A stretch of DNA of 57,421 bases, the filler included, from Dirinaria sp. TL-2023a (taxonomy: Eukaryota), in the NCBI GenBank assembly GCA_051941275.1. It is 6 parts of 6 records of this genome, joined end to end, with 100 filler letters (N's around TTAATTAATTAA, not from the genome) between each part and the next. Parts side by side here need not be neighbours in the genome. Positions count along the whole stretch, not along the records: positions 19,193 to 28,679 come from JAVEBF010001046.1; 5 more parts are not named here. One strand, 5' to 3'. A model generated the notes under the pieces. The model was not told where the DNA came from and ran no database searches. It worked only from the letters and a program-made list of their open reading frames with translations. Shown here piece by piece: positions 4,255-47,951 of this stretch (position 1 is the first letter of the stretch; each line of letters starts with the position of its first letter). The position numbers and the translations under genes were made by a program.

Positions 4255-4974
4255 TTTTAGTGCGTGCATAACACTTAGCAATGCTTGGCACCAGATAGAC
4301 TGCATGCGACTACAGAGTTATGTACAGTACCTTACATAAGGTAATGTAAAGCAGGTAAGGTATGATTAGGGGCTCGAACCCATGTCAGCAAAGTGACCCT
4401 GAATAAGTCTTTGCGGAGTTGTGCAGGGAATGCACGCCATTCGAAGCACCAGAACGTTATCATCTGAATTACTGGTCCATCATAGACCACCCACGAAATG
4501 AATTGAATATCTCTATGAGAGAAAGTCTGGCCCACGCAAGGAGCTCATCAGGCTGTTCTACCGAAATCCTAAAATCGGCAAGGTCAAAAAAGGAACGGAA
4601 ATTAGCACGGTTCGGAAGCCAGTATGTAGATTCAAGATTTGCTCAGTGTTTCTCATATGAGACATTCTGCTATCTAGATTCACCATTAGGTCCATGATTC
4701 CAACTTCCGTTCCCTCGTACACGACAACCTTGACACCTGCTCTTCAACTCCGAGATTATGCTATCGATGTGATCGTCGTGCTCGATAAATAAATGCCGCG
4801 CCTATTGATACCAACATGCCCAACCAAGCGGTTACTATGTACAATGAGATCTCCTGAAGCTCTCTTCCAGCAATGAACACCGGCGTGCGGAGTGGCTTTC
4901 GAGCGATATTCGGTCGCGCGCACTGGGCGTGTCAAGGGGCCCCATGCTGGAGCGCCCTGTGGGCAACTATCTCG

Positions 4975-9498: not shown

Positions 9499-9598
9499 NN
9501 NNNNNNNNNNNNNNNNNNNNNNNNNNNNNNNNNNNNNNNNNNTTAATTAATTAANNNNNNNNNNNNNNNNNNNNNNNNNNNNNNNNNNNNNNNNNNNN
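9499..9598. other. Artificial contig linker
   Basis: N44-TTAATTAATTAA-N44, exactly 100 nt, with stops in all six frames. Confidence 0.98.
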
Positions 9599-19092: not shown

Positions 19093-19192
19093 NNNNNNNN
19101 NNNNNNNNNNNNNNNNNNNNNNNNNNNNNNNNNNNNTTAATTAATTAANNNNNNNNNNNNNNNNNNNNNNNNNNNNNNNNNNNNNNNNNNNN
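19093..19192. other. Artificial contig linker
   Basis: N44-TTAATTAATTAA-N44. Confidence 0.98.
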
Positions 19193-19695: not shown

Positions 19696-21734
19696 TTACT
19701 CACTGAACGACTTCCCCAGGTTCTCATCCCCCTGCCAGAATTTGGGCATAGGAGGTAGTTTCTGGCGCAGTACTTTGACCCTGAAAGTGTGCATCGCTGC
19801 CTTGATGTGGTACGAAGCATGCTTCCAAGTCGGCACGGAGAAGACCTGATCCAGCTCTTCCAACGTCAGAGCCTTGGTCTCGGGGACGAAGAGCAAAACG
19901 CCGACCCAGCCGATGAGGCACCACACCGCGTACCAGGCGAAGGCGCCTTGGTCTTTGAAGCTTGTGCGCAGCATAGGCCAGGTAAAGGAGAGGATGAAAT
20001 TGAAGGTCCACGTGGTGGCGGTAGCGAACGACATGCCGACTTCACGAATGTGGAGGGGGAACGCCTCCGCCGAGTACGTAAAGGGGACAGGGCCCGAGCC
20101 GGGCGAATAGAAGACTTCGAAGAGGTACATTCCCGTGGTGACCATGGCGACCCGCTTGGGTTTTAACTCGTCTATCCAGAACGAGAATCCGGTCCAGAAT
20201 AGGAAAATGGCCAAGAATGGGTATGTGAAGAGCAGCAGGTTGCGGCGGCCGAACGAGTCAATGGTCAAGAAAGCTGGGATGGCAAAAACCCAATTGAGAA
20301 TACCGGTACCCATAGAAGCGAGAAGCGCGCTCGACTCGCTAAACCCTGAGTTGAGAAAGATGGTTGTCGAGTAATACCTGGAATGAATTTAGCCTACTGC
20401 CCGTCCAGCGAGGACAGTAGATCGAATCACTTACGCAATCACATTTACACCGCAGAATTGCTGCATGAACATGACGATCCAGCTAGCCAAAGCAGCGCGT
20501 CGGTTGCGGCCCACAGTGAACATTTCCTTGACCAGATTTCTGCCGCGCGAGACTTTGCGCTCAATTTCAACATTGACGTAGCAGTAATAGAGATCTCGAG
20601 CAGCTTGGAGATCGCTACCCCGGATCCTCTGGAAAGCGTGAAACGCTTTATCGACCCGATTCTTCTTGATCAGCCATCGAGGGGATTCTGGGCAGAGATA
20701 CACTTGCGCACAGACGACCAGGGGCAAAACCACGGTCGAGCCGAGCATCAGACGCCAGTTCAGATCATGGCCAACGTTCAAAAATGCGACTCCCATAATG
20801 TTGCCGAGCTAAATTTGCAATGGGTTCAAGGATTAGCCACTTCTTTCCATTCTGATCAACTAGCAACCTGATAAGCAACTGAAACGAAATATCTGAAACG
20901 TACCATGATCCCGAAAGCGGTCCACATCTGCCACATCATAACCAAAGCTCCTCGGATGAGAGGCGGAGAACATTCGGCAGCGTAAACGGGGGTGGTGGTC
21001 GATTTTGAGCCAATCCCCAAGCCAAGGAAGAACCTAGCAACGAACAAATTGACCCATGAGTTGGCGACACCTTCCCAGATCGAGGCGAGAGCTGCGATCA
21101 AACAGGAGATGAAAATGGTGCCTCGCCGCCCAAAAAGGCTGTTCAGAGGTGCGGTGAGCCAGCAGCCCAGAACTGCACAGGCCAGGTAAGGAGCTCCGAC
21201 GACAAGGCCGGTAATGTAATTTGCCATGTTGACGTCGAAGCGATCGGATGTGTTGGTTTTTGAGTCCGTCACTACATTGAATCGTTTGAGGTAGAAAGTT
21301 TGAGCGCCGTTGTTGACTGTCTCGTCCATGCCCTGGACGGCGGCGCAGAGCGAACACATGATAACGAGGTAGTAAAGCTGCTTGGGATGGCGCCATTTGT
21401 GGGTGTGCTCCTCCTCCAGCACGCGCTTCTCGTCGTCACTCAGAACATCCAAGTGCTGGTATCCAGATGGATCCTGAGCTACAAGAGCGCCCTTGCGGAA
21501 CGTCTCTTGATACTCGATGAGGTTGTTCTCTGTGCAGAATTTGTCGACATCGGCGAAGAGCTGTTCCCGTGGAATGCCACCGAGGGGATTTTCGAACATG
21601 GCATTGAGCTTGTCTCGCGGAACAGCATCGGGGGCAGCGCCATATCCCCCAACACTGGCCCTCTTCTCACTGTGTACAGCCTCATTTCCGATAGTGGACG
21701 ACCCCGGAGAGCTTTCATTCTTCTGGTCAGCCAT
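19696..21734 (-). CDS. MFS sugar porter (polyol/myo-inositol transporter-like)
   Basis: AVQGMDET, FGRRGTI, PVYAAECSPPLIRG, PESPRW, MQQFCGVNVI, IDSFGRR, YSAEAFPL, PETKALTLEELD. Introns ~20808-20902 and ~20378-20434. Confidence 0.93.
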
Positions 21735-24695
21735 CGTGAGAATTGTTTAGGTGTCGACGATATTTTACGTCGACAAGCATCAGCGACGAGCAGCAGGTGA
21801 TATGACAGTCGAGGGGAGAAGTTTTACGGGACGGAGGGGCTGAGGAGGGACGGGTCATTTATTGCTGACGCCAATGAAGTGGTTTCAAATCAGCCAACTC
21901 GGCCTTCCGTGGTGCCTCATTGCCTCCCGTCGCTTGGGTTGCCAAACTAAGGATGGTTCATGGTTGTAGAATTTTGCTTCACACCAATCAGATCGAGTCC
22001 ACGTACCCAGGGAGCCAAGCTTCCTTGAGCTGGTGCTGTGGGGACGGGAAGGCTGTGTATTGCTTATGGTCGATCCAATGAACAAAATTTTATGTCATAC
22101 GGATCCTGAGTCAGCACAAGTAGCAACTACTACAAAGCCAAGAAGAAGAAAAATTGACTGTGAAGGCAAAGCCACCAATGACGCAACACAAAGACCCAAA
22201 GGTCATATGAACAAATGCTTAAACCGGTTCCCAAAACATTGTTCTTGCTACTACGACTGGAGTCAGTACTGGAAGGCGACTCGAACCACAACATAAAGTA
22301 ACCGAGGGCAAGACCAGATTTCGCATCATTGAAGATTATTATCCAGGTATGCCTTGTCTATCGGTCATGCGGCCAGCTGCACGTTGGCACGCTGGGATCC
22401 TTTCCGAATGCAACAACAAAAACGACCGCTCCTGCAGGCTGATCGCGATCTTCAAGGCCATGTTGTCAAGATAAGCCTCGCCGCACTTAGCTTGCCCCCT
22501 CCCCCCTGAAACATTGACTCCCCCTGACTAATCCAATCATCTCCTTCCCTCGCAGCTCCAGCTGCCAAGATATTGGTCTTGGCATTCTGATCATCCATTC
22601 GGAAATAAGGCAAGGCACCGGTGACGACATGTAAGGTACCTACCTTGAGGAAAATTATACTACGGCTTTCCAGGCTCCTCTACCTACATACGATACGTAC
22701 TATATATATGCATCCAAAAAAAGGAGGGGAAAAAAAAACAATCTTCACGGTTTCTGCGCCCCGGTCCATGCGAAACGAACAGTCGCCGCCATCCGCCCAG
22801 CTTCCAAAAACTTAAAACACATGACCCATGGCCCAACATTTGCTATGCTTGCCACAGACTGAGACTAGCGCTCAAACTGTCCCTGATCATGTTTCCTCCA
22901 CGTTTCGCAGATATTATTATTCAGAAAAGGTTGATCACAGGATCTTCCTCCACTGCTCTTTTCTTTGTCGCTGGTCTCGTGGTAATCTGGAGACTTTGAG
23001 CGAGATTTATTTGAGTCGGAATAAAGAGTTGTGAGATCTTCCGTTACCATAACGTGCTAAAACCGTCTTGGCAATGGATGAGATGTTGAAGCGAAGGGAA
23101 TCCACTCTACTCTGGCCAAGGGCAAATCTCACGTGATATTCAAGCTGAATATACCGAGGAAGGCAAGCTTTCTTTTCTTTTTTTCTAAATTTTCAGTAGA
23201 AATCAATTCGTGCTTTCTAATGAAGCAGAGGGGTGGCATTTCAGTACCTGTTGATTAAACTGCATTATTCTTTGTATTCTTTTCATAGGGTGGCGCAGTA
23301 AGGTAAAATTGAATTCCTCTCTTTTTCCCCATCCGCAGTCTGTATACCCAGTCTATCATGAAGAAAAAAAATTGGAAGCACATATCAAGCAGACCCCTGA
23401 AATTTGACGCACAATTAAAGCCAATCTCACACTACATTACACGACTATCGTAGATGCGGCGCAAGCTATATACGTATGGTATACGGAGTCGCACTGATTG
23501 CTATCCGCTACCGACTGTTCCTTTCTTCCTTTCTTCTTTTTTGTCTGAAAGATCAATATCCGAAACAACACAGCATTACATTTGTAACTCTCATCACCCG
23601 AATCAAACCAATAGACTCAGCATAAATATATCTCAAAGAGCGAGATCAGTAAATGCCTTGATCGGTTTCCGGATGCTTTTATTCCCATCCATCCCTCAAC
23701 ACCATACTCAATTTTTCATACGCTCAAAGCATCTATAGCGTAGGCGTTACTCTTCATCCTCGACTTAGACACCTCGTTTACATTTGAGTTATTTATTATT
23801 GATTGGGTGGACTGTTGTCAGCTACTGGAGCTCGATCAAAGTTGGTGCTGCTGCTGCTGCTTCACATGGGATCGCGTATGAGTGCTTGCGGCCTCGATGA
23901 CAGGTTTCTAGAGAATCGATGCGTTTCAGAAGCATCCAGCTCGGGAGCATGCAAATGTTGAAGATTGAATTGTTCTAAATTCCAGTGATATTGGCTTCGC
24001 GGTCGAGCAGACTCTAGCAATAGCGTAGGATATGGGATGAGGTTGCCTCCCGAAGAAGAGATAGGTTTCGGGTTTGCTGAACGGGCGTTTTGTTCTCAAG
24101 AAAGTAGCTGAAGTGATAAATAATAAGTCCAGATAGAACTTTCAAATTAGAAACTTGTCGCACCATCATCACTTTTTCGCTACTTCCACATCTCCATTCC
24201 TAATATGGATACGGCTCCTCTTTGGGACATGAGCTGCAGAGCGGCGATGCGTGAAGGGTTTTGTCAAGCTTGGTAACGTTTGGGCAATTATTGAGACCGA
24301 TACTCGTATTTCGATCCCTTTGACTTGGGCGTGGCTTTGACCTTTGAGTGAGAATCGCGATGATGTAGTGTTTATTGATAACGAAATTATTTGGATTATG
24401 CCATGCTATTATCATCCAGCCTGTTGATGGGCAAAAGCTTAGATTATTGGGTCTGAATGTGATTGATTGTCAATTGGGCAGGAGATAAAAATTTGGACAT
24501 ACATAGTAGCTGGAAAGGGTTTGTGAACATAAGTGAAGAGGAATGTAAATGCCACAACTCCCTTCAAAAATAGTACGACGTAATAGAAAAGAAAATAAAG
24601 CCAAAAACCCCCACAGAAAAAGAAAAGAGAAAAAAAGCAAAGAATTCTAAAGTATATATATACTAATAAGGCCCCGTTTCCCCATCCCGCGCAGT

Positions 24696-24795
24696 AGGCG
24701 TATGTGGGCGATTGGCCTAACGGTTACAACTCCATCCACAGTAAACCTCGCACGAAACTACCCGAAAGGGTCCGGGGTTCGAGTCCGGTAAGCCT
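24696..24795 (+). ncRNA. Candidate RNA polymerase III-transcribed, tRNA-related structured RNA (not a canonical tRNA)
   Basis: A-box-like TGGCCTAACGG (24713-24723), consensus B box GGTTCGAGTCC (24776-24786), ACCC-GAAA-GGGT hairpin, terminal AGGC/GCCT pairing, upstream TATATATATA (24653-24662). Confidence 0.55.
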
Positions 24796-26056
24796 CCTTC
24801 TTCAGCATTGATTTCAAATCGATCTAAAGGGGGAGCCAAGTTACTAAGCTTCCCTGAGCCGAGAGCGAAAAGGGAGGGGTGCTTTAGAAAACAAAAAAAG
24901 ATTTTCTATAGCCACGAACCTCAGAGGTCCCCCGAGGACTCTGGGCTTCGGGGTGAATGTTTTGTGGGTTTACATACCTGGATAGGGCTGAAGGGGTGTT
25001 AAGGTATTATATTTCTTTTAGTGCAGAAAGAAGGCCACGGGAGGGGGGGGAAATCATGATTTTCATGTCATGTTTGACTTCATGCTTTCTTTCTTGATTC
25101 TATGAGACTGGGTTTGTGATATAAGAAGAAGAATTTTACTTAGGTTGAGCGTTTTCTCAGATTTGGACGGTATTGCTGTCAGCACAGGTCCCATCGATGT
25201 AGGATCATCAGGGGCGGGCATTCGTCCATTGCTGAAGATAACATATAGACTCTCCAGCCGAAATCCATCACGCCATCTCACCTTGTACTCAACAGATGAC
25301 TGTATCCGAGGCGTATCGAGCTACATATTTTCTCGTTGCTTACGCATTGTTCTGTACATGACAGAACGACTGAAGGCGTACATTGGTTTCTCACAATCTT
25401 TTGCCTGCGATGCTGACATGAAACAATTTTGAGACTGTTGTGAACCAAGTCTATGCTCACGTTCTTCAATTTCTGTCTCAGGCCGTCCGAACTTCCTGAT
25501 CTCTAACATTGCAAGCCACATCAAGACCTTTCAGAGAGATAGCGGCGTCCGCGACTTTGAACGAAAGTGCTCCTAAATGTGAAAGAGGTCGGAGCCAGGC
25601 GGAAAATTGTGACCGCATGTTGAGTTTTCAGGACCAGGAAAAGGTTAGAAAATGAGGATAATCAGCTGCTCAAAGAACTAAATCTTCCACAAGGTCCAGG
25701 CATCGCAGAATCGAATTCAAATCACAATTTCAATGTTTGAATCATGATTCTAAATTTGGATGCTGCGATGTAACCAAAGGAGTCAAAATTTGCAATAACA
25801 GCAAATTTCTCGACCTATATGAAGTTCTGAAAGCTATTGTGAGGGTTGCAGAATATCTAACATAAAAAAATAGCATTTCTTCATTGTAAATCAATCAGTC
25901 TCTAGGGTTGTGCAGGACAAATAGCCGTGAAAAGACTCAACTACCGCGCGGCTATCGCACACTCTACCCATCTCTCTTGGCCCTTCGACTCGCTGAAGGC
26001 ATGCATGTCTTGGCGCTTATAATACATACACCACGGTGTTAGCCGTTTATGCAATC

Positions 26057-28452
26057 ATGGCGACCGAGCCGCTTCCGCTAGAGAGTCATACCCAAAATAT
26101 GTCTCCTAACACGCCTTCCCCGTCCTCTCAATCTAAGAAACCGCAGCGGCTGCTTGCGTGTGTACTCTGCCAAAAGCGCAAGGTGAAGTGTGATCGAAAA
26201 GAGCCTTGCACGAATTGCCTGAAGTCAGAGTCGCAATGTGTGCCAGCAAGCCTAGCGCAGCGTCGACGAAGACGCAGATTTTCCGAGCGAGCGCTGCTGG
26301 AACGTCTTCGCAAATACGAAGACTTGCTCCGCCAGAACAGCATATCGTTCGAACCACTCCACAGGGATTCGGCTAGAGAGCAAGAGTCTCCAAATGCAGA
26401 GAATGGTGATCACTCCAACGATGAGCATCTGAGAACTGTAGGGCCAGGTTTGTCAACTACCTCTATCTCGACTACGACTAAGTCTGGACGAGGCTCTAGA
26501 CCCAAGTATGCGCTGTTCAAGAAGCTAATTCAAGATGACTAATTCTCTCAGGAACATCTGGCACGCCATAAGCCAAGGAGTATGACTATGTCGTATGAGA
26601 TTGAAGCGCTACTGACAATAGCAATAGTTCCGAGGCTCCGACAATGACAGTGACTCTTCGCTTGACGATGCAGGTGAGGCCGTGTTCAAGAAGGCATGGG
26701 ATCAATCGTACGAGAATAACGAATGGCTTCTATTTGGCTCGCGAACGACAATTGCCGAGCTTTCTATTCTACATCCCGATCCACTCCAGATATTTAGGCT
26801 TTGGCAGACGTATATAGAAAACGTAAACCCGCTGCTTAAGGTCACACATACTCCCAGCTTGCAAGAACGCTTTATAGAAGCTGCTAGTAATGTGAAGAAT
26901 ATCAAGCCCACTCTGGAGGCGCTCATGTTCAGTATCTACTGCACGTCCATTCAAAGTCTCGAAGCGAAAGACTGCCAAATATTATTTGGTCTCTCAAAGG
27001 ACGAGCTTTTGATGCGGTATCAGACCGCCTGTCAGCAAGCGCTGTTCAACTGTGGGTTTTTACGTTCCAGCGATCGTGATTGTTTGACCGCGTTATATCT
27101 CTACCTAGTCAGTCTGACCAGTGGCCGACCTCTTCGATCCTTGCTGACGATTTCAGGTCTCCGTCAGACCTAGCACAGTTCCTCAGTCTCTATCCTCCAT
27201 GCTTGGCGTCGCAGTTCGCATTGCGCAACGCATGGGTATTCACAGCGAGACGGCTCTAGCAACATGCACTATTTTTGAGGCCGAAATGCGCCGGAGACTC
27301 TGGTGGTCGCTTGTGCTCTTTGACACTCGCATCAGTGAGATTGCCAATTCTAAGATGGCAACGCTGGATCCCACGTGGGACTGCAAGATTCCTCTCAATG
27401 TGAGTGATTCTGACCTCCGGCCAGAGATGAAGAGGCCACCAGTGATTCAGAGAAATCCCACAGAGGCAATTTTTGCAGTTGTACGTAGTGAGGTAGGCGA
27501 ATTCATTCGCCACACGGGTTTTCACCTTGATTTAACCAGTCCGGCTTTAAAGGCTATCTCCAAACATCTTCAGAACGAGCCAAGTCAAGAAGGTGGTGAG
27601 CTAATCAAGCTGGAGGAGACGATTGAGGGCGAGTATCTCAAGTCCTGTGACCCAGAAAACCCAGTTCACTTCATGACAATCTGGACAACGCGAGCATACC
27701 TTGCTAAATGCCGCCTCCTGGAACACCACTCAAGGTACTCTAGCTCATCGATACGTCAGGCCGAGGCAGAGCGTGACGCTGCCACTTCTCACGCGCTTCG
27801 CATGCTTGAGTGCGACACGAAAATCATGACCTCACCCCTCACCAAAGGATTTCGTTGGCTGAATCACTTCTACTTCCCATTCCCAGCCTACATCCAGATC
27901 ACCCAAGACTTGAGAACGCGACCGACGAGCGAGCAAGCGCAGCAGGCGTGGGAAGTCATGAGTGACAACCATATGGTTTGGTTCAATGCTCAATGTCCAG
28001 AGGATAGTCCGTTTTTCCATATTTTCGCCAAGCTCGTCCTCCAGGCATGGGAAGCTTGCGAAGCAGCCTCCAAGCAATCAGGAAACACTTCCGAACCACC
28101 ACCACCACCCATTGTGGCATCCATCAGACACACACTGGCACAGACAGCAGCCACGCGAAATGCACAGAATCCCGATGACACCGAGCAGCCGAACACTCCT
28201 GTTACGGGCATGGAAACCGACGAGCTTCGGGTGCCGATGTCAACAGGCTTCACGAACCAGAACCTGCCATCTAGTGCGGGAATGCAGGACGGCTACGCAG
28301 TACCAGGAGGCCTCGATGTATACCCTGGCACATCAGGACAAGCTCCGTTCGATATCGCTACGAACCAATTGGACTGGACCGCGTCATGTGCACATTCGGA
28401 TTGGGAAGGTTGGCCCGGCTGGGGAGGCTGGCCCGGTTGGGGAGGCTGCTGA
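26057..28452 (+). CDS. Zn(II)2Cys6 transcription factor with fungal-specific TF (middle homology) domain
   Basis: ACVLCQKRKVKCDRKEPCTNCLKSESQC; LWQTYIENVNPLLKVTH; AVRIAQRMGIH, EMRRRLWW, PLNVSDSDL. Introns 26506-26551, 26580-26627, ~27108-27157. Confidence 0.92.
28408..28443 (+). repeat. 18-bp coding tandem duplication (GWPGWG x2) at TF C-terminus
   Basis: ggttggcccggctgggga followed by ggctggcccggttgggga. Confidence 0.8.
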
Positions 28453-28679: not shown

Positions 28680-28779
28680 NNNNNNNNNNNNNNNNNNNNN
28701 NNNNNNNNNNNNNNNNNNNNNNNTTAATTAATTAANNNNNNNNNNNNNNNNNNNNNNNNNNNNNNNNNNNNNNNNNNNN
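28680..28779. other. Artificial contig linker
   Basis: N44-TTAATTAATTAA-N44. Confidence 0.98.
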
Positions 28780-38266: not shown

Positions 38267-38366
38267 NNNNNNNNNNNNNNNNNNNNNNNNNNNNNNNNNN
38301 NNNNNNNNNNTTAATTAATTAANNNNNNNNNNNNNNNNNNNNNNNNNNNNNNNNNNNNNNNNNNNN
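38267..38366. other. Artificial contig linker
   Basis: N44-TTAATTAATTAA-N44. Confidence 0.98.
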
Positions 38367-47851: not shown

Positions 47852-47951
47852 NNNNNNNNNNNNNNNNNNNNNNNNNNNNNNNNNNNNNNNNNNNNTTAAT
47901 TAATTAANNNNNNNNNNNNNNNNNNNNNNNNNNNNNNNNNNNNNNNNNNNN
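47852..47951. other. Artificial contig linker
   Basis: N44-TTAATTAATTAA-N44. Confidence 0.98.

What the first reader, a model, noticed from the sequence alone, without database searches (positions are those of the whole stretch)
24653..24810. Pol III-type structured ncRNA candidate that is tRNA-like but cannot form a cloverleaf
Seen in sequence: in a gene-poor intergenic stretch, a TATA run (24653-24662) precedes a ~100-nt element. It has an A-box-like TGGCCTAACGGTTA, a perfect B box GGTTCGAGTCC, a GNRA hairpin ACCC-GAAA-GGGT just 5' of the T-arm, an internal TGTGG/CCACA stem (24703-24707 with 24736-24740) and closing AGGCGTA/TAAGCCT pairing. The D-stem, anticodon arm and normal acceptor stem do not form, so it is not a functional tRNA. 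An A box ending CGGTTAC plus a B box inside a closing stem resembles the architecture of vault RNAs and other tRNA-derived Pol III RNAs. Inference: an unannotated fungal Pol III RNA or a tRNA-derived SINE head. Caveat: no T4+ terminator directly follows; the first TTTT is at ~24902.
Basis: partly seen in the sequence, partly recalled or inferred. Interest (0 to 1): 0.75.

Follow-up and report, generated by a model that had tools for sequence, protein, structure and literature searches.

The report
Worn-out tRNA-like remnant between genes
A short stretch between two fungal genes keeps the promoter boxes and rear half of a tRNA gene but cannot make a tRNA or any notably stable RNA fold, so it is most likely a tRNA-derived remnant or small repeat and not a new RNA gene.

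Summary
The element is not a tRNA. ARAGORN and Rfam find nothing, even at E<=10 on 161 bases. None of 7456 single-deletion variants gives a tRNA call.

It is also not unusually structured. The 100-nt and 121-nt cores fold worse than most shuffles (z +0.86 and +1.44).

A B box alone is at chance level, about 0.9 per 57 kb. The combination of B box, flanking stem, adjacent 4-bp hairpin and A box is rare, about 0.14 expected per 35 Mb.

One public DNA run holds a 188-base contig covering 24672-24859 with 4 differences. Nothing else in 2.4 kb around it is covered apart from low-complexity matches. The unit is therefore either better conserved or more abundant than its flanks.

I found no other relatives, no transcript data, no T5+ terminator within 900 nt, and no significant target-site duplication.

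Best reading: a tRNA-derived relic or low-copy SINE-like unit that may still bind TFIIIC. The vault-RNA comparison is not supported.

The scan has flagged at least 8 other Pol III-like or tRNA-like candidates in this genome. A word search with this element matched none of the scan's noted stretches.

The parts
24653..24662 (+). TATATATATA run, 34-43 nt upstream of the closing stem and 51 nt upstream of the A-box match. Lies outside the contig of run X1.
   Evidence: sequence; the contig starts at 24672
24672..24859 (+). Unit carried by a single 188-nt contig of public DNA run X1: 4 differences, k-mer depth 4.6. This is the minimal extent of the conserved or repeated unit.
   Evidence: tables 2, 3 and 8
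24696..24702 (+). 5' strand of the closing (acceptor-like) stem, AGGCGTA. Pairs 6 of 7 with 24789-24795.
   Evidence: part of the centroid fold
24713..24723 (+). A-box match TGGCCTAACGG (fits TRGCNNANNGG). It is out of register with the closing stem by about 10 nt. X1 differs at 24722 (G>T), which breaks the match in that copy.
24760..24771 (+). 4-bp hairpin with GAAA loop, placed where the long variable arm of a class II tRNA sits.
   Evidence: (MFE of 24756-24796)
24772..24788 (+). T-arm-like hairpin CCGGG/GTTCGAG/TCCGG, in a register shifted by one base from a tRNA T arm.
   Evidence: flag 'Tshift' true and 'Tstd' false
24776..24786 (+). B box GGTTCGAGTCC, a perfect match to GGTTCGANNCC.
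24789..24795 (+). 3' strand of the closing stem, TAAGCCT.
24794..24835 (+). 42-nt hairpin directly after the tRNA-like part, inside the X1 contig. This is the only local fold that beats shuffles: -17 kcal/mol, z -2.42, 2 of 200 shuffles.
24888..24905 (+). A-rich run (24888-24899) followed by the first T4 (24902-24905). Possible retroposon tail and/or weak Pol III stop. Neither is shown.

Best explanation
The element is a piece of DNA derived from a tRNA gene, probably a class II (long variable arm) type. It has lost the cloverleaf and no longer encodes a tRNA or a notably stable RNA. It sits inside a discrete unit of at least 188 nt (24672-24859), and that unit is either a low-copy SINE-like tRNA-related repeat or an in-place decayed tRNA gene. 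My odds within this reading are about 55:45.

What it still has is a TFIIIC-type promoter: a perfect B box and an A-box match 52 nt upstream. The likely present-day behaviour, which is inferred and not shown, is TFIIIC binding at the B box. At most there would be weak Pol III initiation near 24693-24703 that runs on for about 200 nt or more, because no T5+ stop follows. That is the behaviour of the yeast tRNA relics ZOD1 and iYGR033C and of ETC sites.

Shown here: the motifs, the absence of a tRNA or Rfam match, the absence of excess fold stability, and the presence of the unit in one other data set. Inferred: the tRNA ancestry, factor binding and transcription.
For: - Motifs are at the stated places.
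- The layout 'hairpin, then stem with B box, then acceptor-like strand' matches the 3' half of a class II tRNA. The hairpin abuts the stem with 0-1 nt between them.
- In 20 Mb of first-order Markov sequence, 313 B boxes occurred. Of these, 7% had a flanking stem, 23% an adjacent hairpin, 1.6% an A box 30-80 nt upstream, and 0 of 313 had all three. The product of the rates gives about 0.14 per 35 Mb.
- Run X1 holds one 188-nt contig over 24672-24859 with 4 differences, and nothing else in 23800-26200 except low-complexity A-rich matches. By my arithmetic, a random 188-nt patch within the 1601 nt used to find the run would cover the flagged element this well in about 5% of placements.
- It is not a tRNA.
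- It has no excess structure.
- There is no T5+ run within 900 nt downstream. By the review PMC5356446 (passages read), S. pombe needs 5 T and S. cerevisiae 6.
- B-box binding by TFIIIC is nanomolar, and natural A-B spacings run from 31 to 93 bp (PMC11724288, passages). The spacing here is 52.
- Weakly transcribed tRNA relics and TFIIIC-only sites are known in yeast (PMC5356446).
- Low-copy or single-copy tRNA-related SINE-like units are described in Aspergillus fumigatus (PMC5063351, abstract and passages).
Against: - No ancestral tRNA could be named.
- The 5' half shows no D arm or anticodon arm, and the A-box match is about 10 nt out of register with the closing stem.
- Even after hypothetically adding two C to the T stem, ARAGORN made a call only at 90% of its threshold. 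That call was a poor 'Trp' with 3 of 5 anticodon-stem pairs. It made no call at 92% or 95%.
- My chance criteria were defined after seeing the element, and 0.14 per genome is not negligible for a scan that read most of a genome.
- For the SINE form: there is no second copy in the 57-kb window. The flanking direct repeat (20 of 26 aligned columns) is matched or beaten by 18% of the 67 A-rich pairs tested. No LINE or other coding relic lies nearby (0 of 40 ORFs with a Pfam hit).
- The X1 evidence is a single contig from one very fragmented assembly of an organism whose name is coded. Low, uneven coverage of the same locus is not excluded.
- Both listed X1 differences (24722, 24727) fall in or next to the A-box match. 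That argues against constraint on the A box.
Confidence: 0.6

Rival explanations
1. Chance. This is ordinary intergenic DNA in which a B-box match happens to lie next to small hairpins and downstream of an A-box match. No tRNA ancestry and no function.
For: - A B box alone is at chance frequency: 0.9 expected per 57 kb, 2 seen, and the other one (4370, minus strand) has no tRNA features.
- A closing stem of 6 of 7 pairs somewhere within 100 nt is unremarkable (my estimate).
- No tRNA or Rfam signal appears at any threshold tried.
- The folds are weaker than shuffles.
- No relatives were found in three collections.
- The scan reads many windows, so an event expected 0.14 times per genome will turn up.
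Against: - 0 of 313 simulated B boxes had all three accompanying features.
- The only good contig that X1 lays on 2.4 kb falls on the flagged element. I estimate about a 5% chance for a randomly placed patch.
Confidence: 0.25
2. A working, lineage-specific Pol III gene. The tRNA-derived boxes act as an internal or leader promoter for an RNA of about 140-210 nt that includes the 42-nt hairpin at 24794-24835. It would be conserved among related lichen fungi.
For: - TATA run, A box and B box have spacing compatible with Pol III.
- The 188-nt unit is about 98% identical in another data set while the flanks are not seen.
- The hairpin after the tRNA-like part is more stable than shuffles: z -2.42, 2 of 200.
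- No Rfam family matches, so if real it would be undescribed.
Against: - There is no T5+ terminator within 900 nt, and the first T4 is at 24902.
- The whole unit folds no better than shuffles (z -0.16), and the tRNA-like part folds worse.
- The X1 copy breaks the A-box match at 24722.
- Covariation cannot be assessed from one relative with 4 changes.
- The TATA run lies outside the conserved contig.
Confidence: 0.12

Closest known systems
ZOD1 and iYGR033C of Saccharomyces cerevisiae (relics of tRNA-Ile and tRNA-Arg genes) and ETC (extra TFIIIC) sites
   Same: All are tRNA-gene-derived or B-box-bearing intergenic sites that no longer make a tRNA. In yeast they are occupied by TFIIIC, with or without Pol III, and at most weakly transcribed (PMC5356446, passages). 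This element has a perfect B box and an A-box match at a permitted spacing.
   Different: Factor occupancy and transcription are untested here. For the yeast relics the ancestral tRNA is known. Here none could be assigned.
AfuSINE2 tRNA-related SINE-like sequences of Aspergillus fumigatus (Kanhayuwa and Coutts 2016, PMC5063351)
   Same: Both are from filamentous ascomycetes and have a tRNA-related head with degenerate A and B boxes, a tRNA-unrelated extension, a size of 140-493 bp, and a very low copy number (some single copy). tRNAscan rejects the AfuSINE2 sequences as true tRNAs (abstract and passages).
   Different: AfuSINE2 units were reported with 4-14 bp target-site duplications, and five of eight were transcribed. 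Here the flanking repeat is not significant, no second copy was found in the window, and there are no expression data. I did not compare the sequences themselves.
tRNA (Rfam RF00005), class II type (Ser/Leu)
   Same: B box and T-loop sequence, a hairpin in the place of the long variable arm, an acceptor-like closing stem, and an A-box-like D-loop motif.
   Different: No cloverleaf, no D stem and no anticodon arm. The T stem is out of register. No covariance-model or ARAGORN hit.
Vault RNA
   Same: Only the general idea of internal A and B boxes within a closing stem. The comparison is recalled, not tested against vault sequences.
   Different: No Rfam family of any kind, vault included, matches at E<=10. 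No terminator closes a ~100-nt RNA. The closing-stem fold is not favoured over shuffles.

Membership tests
tRNA gene (RF00005 / ARAGORN cloverleaf) | Cloverleaf with acceptor, D, anticodon and T arms, detectable by a tRNA finder | tested here: not met
   ARAGORN gave 0 genes in the window and 0 with introns, mitochondrial mode or thresholds down to ps90 on 24501-25000. At ps80 there was only a call on the opposite strand with an 87-nt intron, which I treat as noise. 0 of 7456 single-deletion variants were called in 4 settings, and the positive control found 2 of 2.
tRNA gene (RF00005 / ARAGORN cloverleaf) | Covariance-model match | tested here: not met
   No Rfam match at gathering scores in the window. 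No match on the element at E<=10 in 501 or 161 bases.
tRNA-derived SINE (SINE2 type) | tRNA-related head with A and B boxes | tested here: met
   A-box match at 24713-24723 and B box at 24776-24786, with 52 nt between them. The combination is rare by chance.
tRNA-derived SINE (SINE2 type) | Several dispersed copies with different flanks | tested here: inconclusive
   No second copy in the 57-kb window. No whole genome is held. One 188-nt contig in run X1 lacks the flanks. No match in metagenome, prokaryote-genome or viral collections for the patterns tried.
tRNA-derived SINE (SINE2 type) | Target-site duplication flanking the unit | tested here: inconclusive
   24628-24652 and 24886-24911 align at 20 of 26 columns. 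That score is reached by 0.3% of all same-geometry pairs in the window, but by 18% of the 67 A-rich pairs.
tRNA-derived SINE (SINE2 type) | A-rich or simple-repeat 3' tail, or a LINE-related 3' end | tested here: inconclusive
   An A-rich run lies at 24888-24899, outside the X1 contig. No LINE partner is available to compare. 0 of 40 nearby ORFs have a Pfam hit.
tRNA-gene relic / extra-TFIIIC site (ZOD1, ETC type) | Consensus B box outside a working tRNA gene | tested here: met
   GGTTCGAGTCC at 24776-24786, and no tRNA is present.
tRNA-gene relic / extra-TFIIIC site (ZOD1, ETC type) | Occupancy by TFIIIC, with or without TFIIIB and Pol III | not testable with these tools
   Needs ChIP in the fungus. 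No RNA run was listed.
tRNA-gene relic / extra-TFIIIC site (ZOD1, ETC type) | Traceable descent from a particular tRNA gene | tested here: inconclusive
   Only the 3' half has a tRNA-like layout. Hypothetical repair of the T stem gives a poor call at ps90 only. The species' own tRNA genes were not available.
Vault RNA | Match to the family model, and a ~100-nt RNA closed by an oligo-T terminator | tested here: not met
   No Rfam hit. First T4 is at 24902 and there is no T5+ within 900 nt.
Leader-promoter Pol III genes (RPR1, SNR52 type; recalled) | A known mature RNA (RNase P RNA, snoRNA) directly downstream of the tRNA-like leader | tested here: not met
   No Rfam family matches 24796-25000 above chance. 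The best is MIR2907 at 22.8 bits against a gathering score of 60. By eye there is no consensus C box upstream of the CTGA at 24854-24857.

The most novel reading that the evidence does not exclude
The 188+ nt unit is a working, lineage-specific Pol III gene of lichen-forming fungi. A tRNA-derived head supplies the internal promoter, and tRNA-processing enzymes may cut it off. That would release the adjoining 42-nt hairpin (24794-24835) or a ~200-nt RNA, a tRNA-plus-hairpin layout otherwise recalled from herpesvirus tRNA-miRNA units. Its ~98% identity in another data set, where the flanks are not seen, would then reflect selection.
Probability: 0.1. Interest if true: 0.6.

Novelty: new member of a known kind. 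Interest (0 to 1): 0.25.

Why it matters
If it is a relic or a low-copy SINE-like unit, it is ordinary. It adds one more tRNA-derived fragment to a fungal genome, of modest use for repeat annotation and as a possible TFIIIC site between a sugar-transporter gene and a Zn2Cys6 regulator gene. It would matter more if the several tRNA-like, Pol III-type candidates that the scan has noted in this genome proved to be one expressed family. Nothing here shows that.

Tried and rejected
- **Whole genome.** None is held for this window. Copy number in the genome could not be measured.
- **Sequencing runs.** One run was listed, and no RNA holder was listed. The flanks were without cover in X1. I use this only as a contrast with the covered unit.
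- **Metagenome scan.** A scan for a 20-mer of the T arm gave 7 loci. All are unrelated GC-rich DNA sharing only the 20-mer, and 2 have ordinary bacterial tRNAs elsewhere.
- **Other collections.** The prokaryote-genome scan gave 0 matches. Two viral-contig scans gave 0.
- **Earlier findings.** A look-up by sequence gave 0. A look-up by eight words gave 0.
- **Protein-database trick.** I searched with the 62-codon open frame across the unit, hoping for spurious gene calls on other copies. No candidate was found.
- **Non-canonical insertion.** tRNA with an intron or other insertion: 0 of 7456 deletion variants were called.
- **Lost bases in the T stem.** With two C added, 0 of 4237 variants were called at default settings and with -i. 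1003 of 4237 were called at -i -ps90, as poor 'Trp' or 'Ala' models. The unmodified-length model was not called at ps92 or ps95. Rejected as a way to name the ancestor.
- **C/D snoRNA downstream.** There is a CTGA at 24854-24857 but no consensus C box (by eye).
- **Coding potential.** 0 of 40 open frames of 50 aa or more in 21750-26000 have a Pfam hit.
- **Rfam weak hits nearby.** MIR2907, mir-562 and mir-2432 score far below their gathering scores and are treated as chance.
- **Yeast or other tRNA sets.** Trying to obtain them through the genome search failed because the record is not held.
- **Literature.** The 10 papers listed of 572 contain nothing, by title or abstract start, on tRNA relics or SINEs of lichen fungi. 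This was one search, not an exhaustive one.
Full report
**Setting.** The element lies in a 4.2-kb stretch between two genes. One is a sugar-transporter gene on the minus strand (19696-21746; Pfam Sugar_tr, E 5e-24 and 3.5e-40). The other is a Zn2Cys6 transcription-factor gene on the plus strand (25997-28452; Zn_clus E 3.7e-09, Fungal_trans E 1.6e-07). The window is therefore fungal. None of the 40 open frames of 50 codons or more in 21750-26000 has a Pfam match. G+C there is 0.41-0.45, against 0.51-0.54 in the flanking genes. No whole genome is held for this window.

**The observation.**
- TATA run at 24653-24662.
- A-box-like motif at 24713-24726.
- B box at 24776-24786.
- ACCC/GAAA/GGGT hairpin at 24760-24771.
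- TGTGG/CCACA at 24703-07 and 24736-40.
- AGGCGTA/TAAGCCT at 24696-24702 and 24789-24795.
- First TTTT at 24902.

Two details need correction. The closing stem has one G.A mismatch, so it has 6 pairs of 7. The stem around the B box pairs only in a register shifted by one base from a real T arm.

**Not a tRNA, and not a known RNA.**
- ARAGORN finds no tRNA in the whole window. It finds none on 24501-25000 with introns, mitochondrial mode or thresholds down to 90%. At 80% it makes one call on the opposite strand with an 87-nt intron, which I treat as noise.
- Rfam 15 gives nothing at gathering scores in the window. It gives nothing on the element at E<=10 in 501 bases, where three weak microRNA-family hits lie beside it. 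It gives nothing at all in 161 bases.
- To test for a non-canonical insertion, I removed every single segment of 1-70 nt from 24670-24830 in a script. 0 of 7456 variants were called in four ARAGORN settings, while the control found 2 of 2 known tRNAs.

**Not notably structured.**
- The 100-nt closing-stem unit folds at -26.5 kcal/mol against a shuffle mean of -29.5 (z +0.86).
- 24690-24810 has z +1.44 on the plus strand and +1.62 on the minus strand.
- The 188-nt unit has z -0.16.
- The one local fold that beats shuffles is a 42-nt hairpin just after the tRNA-like part, at 24794-24835 (z -2.42, 2 of 200).

**More than chance?** I simulated 20 Mb of first-order Markov sequence with the window's composition.
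- B boxes (GGTTCRANNCC) occur 313 times, which is 0.9 per 57 kb. The window has two, the other at 4370 on the minus strand with no tRNA features. The B box alone therefore means nothing.
- Of the 313, 7% have a flanking 5-bp stem, 23% have an adjacent 4-bp hairpin, and 1.6% have an A-box match 30-80 nt upstream. None has all three.
- The product of those rates gives about 0.14 such composites per 35 Mb. The criteria were chosen after seeing the element, so this is an optimistic figure.

**Layout of the 3' part.** The hairpin abuts a T-arm-like stem, which is followed by an acceptor-like strand. That is the layout of a class II tRNA with a long variable arm. The canonical T arm would be restored if the 3' strand had two more C. 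I tested that idea. With the two C added, ARAGORN still calls nothing at default settings (0 of 4237 variants). Only at 90% of threshold does it call a poor model with 3 of 5 anticodon-stem pairs, and it makes no call at 92% or 95%. The ancestry cannot be named.

**Relatives.**
- One public DNA run (X1, coded, a very fragmented assembly of 30 million contigs) was listed. No RNA run was listed.
- Laid on 23800-26200, X1 gives a single good contig: 188 nt, covering 24672-24859 over its whole length, with 4 differences and depth 4.6. Two of the differences are listed, 24722 G>T and 24727 C>T.
- The other 30 laid pieces are short, low-identity matches to the A-rich tract at 24587-24636. Nothing covers the rest of the stretch.
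- By my arithmetic, a 188-nt patch placed at random in the 1601 nt used to find the run would cover the flagged element this well in about 5% of placements. The unit is therefore probably either better conserved than its flanks or present in more copies than they are. One contig from one run cannot tell these apart, and uneven low coverage is not excluded.
- Both listed differences fall in or next to the A-box match, and one breaks it.
- Other searches found nothing related:
  - The 7 metagenome loci share only the 20-mer.
  - Prokaryote genomes gave 0 matches.
  - Two viral-contig scans gave 0.
  - The window itself holds no second copy.
  - Earlier findings searched by sequence gave 0.
  - A protein-database search with an open frame across the unit gave 0.

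**SINE features.**
- A direct repeat flanks 24653-24885: 24628-24652 aligns with 24886-24911 at 20 of 26 columns.
- An A-rich run at 24888-24899 falls within the downstream copy, so that copy may simply be A-rich tail sequence.
- The repeat's score is reached by 18% of the 67 A-rich pairs of the same geometry in the window, so it is not evidence.
- The X1 contig starts 25 nt upstream of the closing stem and 41 nt upstream of the A box. If the unit is a repeat, that is a long leader for a Pol III retroposon.

**Pol III signals.**
- TFIIIC binds the B box with nanomolar affinity, and natural A-B spacings range from 31 to 93 bp (PMC11724288, passages). The spacing here is 52.
- The TATA run lies where TFIIIB would sit, but it is outside the conserved contig.
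- No run of five or more T follows within 900 nt. Fission yeast needs five and budding yeast six (PMC5356446, passages).
- The site could therefore bind TFIIIC and perhaps start weak transcription that reads through. This is inference.

**Comparison with known kinds.**
- The nearest are the yeast tRNA relics ZOD1 and iYGR033C and the ETC sites (PMC5356446).
- Also close are the low-copy tRNA-related AfuSINE2 units of Aspergillus fumigatus: 140-493 bp, some single copy, five of eight transcribed (PMC5063351, abstract and passages).
- The vault-RNA comparison fails the tests I could run.
- The scan has noted at least 8 other tRNA-like or Pol III-type candidates in this genome. A word search with this element matched none of the scan's noted stretches, and I could not compare the sequences directly.

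**Verdict.**

| Reading | Odds |
|---|---|
| tRNA-derived remnant, either decayed in place or carried by a low-copy SINE-like repeat, possibly still a TFIIIC site | 0.6 |
| Chance motifs | 0.25 |
| Working new Pol III RNA gene | 0.12 |

Interest is low to modest.

Noticed in passing
window 9499-9598, 19093-19192, 28680-28779, 38267-38366, 47852-47951: Ten runs of 44 N occur in five pairs, 12 bases apart within a pair, spaced about 9.6 kb apart (440 N in all). They look like regular masking and not assembly gaps.
   Followed up: no
window 4370-4382 (minus strand): A second B-box match (GGGTTCGAGCCCC) has no flanking T stem and no A box. I take it as a chance match.
   Followed up: partly
window 24794-24835: A 42-nt hairpin directly after the tRNA-like part is more stable than shuffles (z -2.42, 2 of 200). 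It is unchanged in the X1 contig as far as the listed differences show.
   Followed up: partly
window 24587-24645: A purine-rich, A-rich low-complexity tract lies just upstream of the TATA run. It attracted many short low-identity contigs of run X1.
   Followed up: no
L004 about 1430-1621: This metagenome contig has tandem tRNA-Lys-like units. The unit upstream of the called tRNA-Lys(ttt) starts like the called gene but carries a longer insert before the T arm, and ARAGORN does not call it. It is unrelated to the finding.
   Followed up: no
same genome, other pieces (earlier notes e1-7652354, e1-7653046, e1-7652215 and others): The scan has noted at least 8 other tRNA-like or Pol III-type candidates in this genome, including a 7-copy cluster and a tandem pair. 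Whether they form one family with this element could not be checked.
   Followed up: partly
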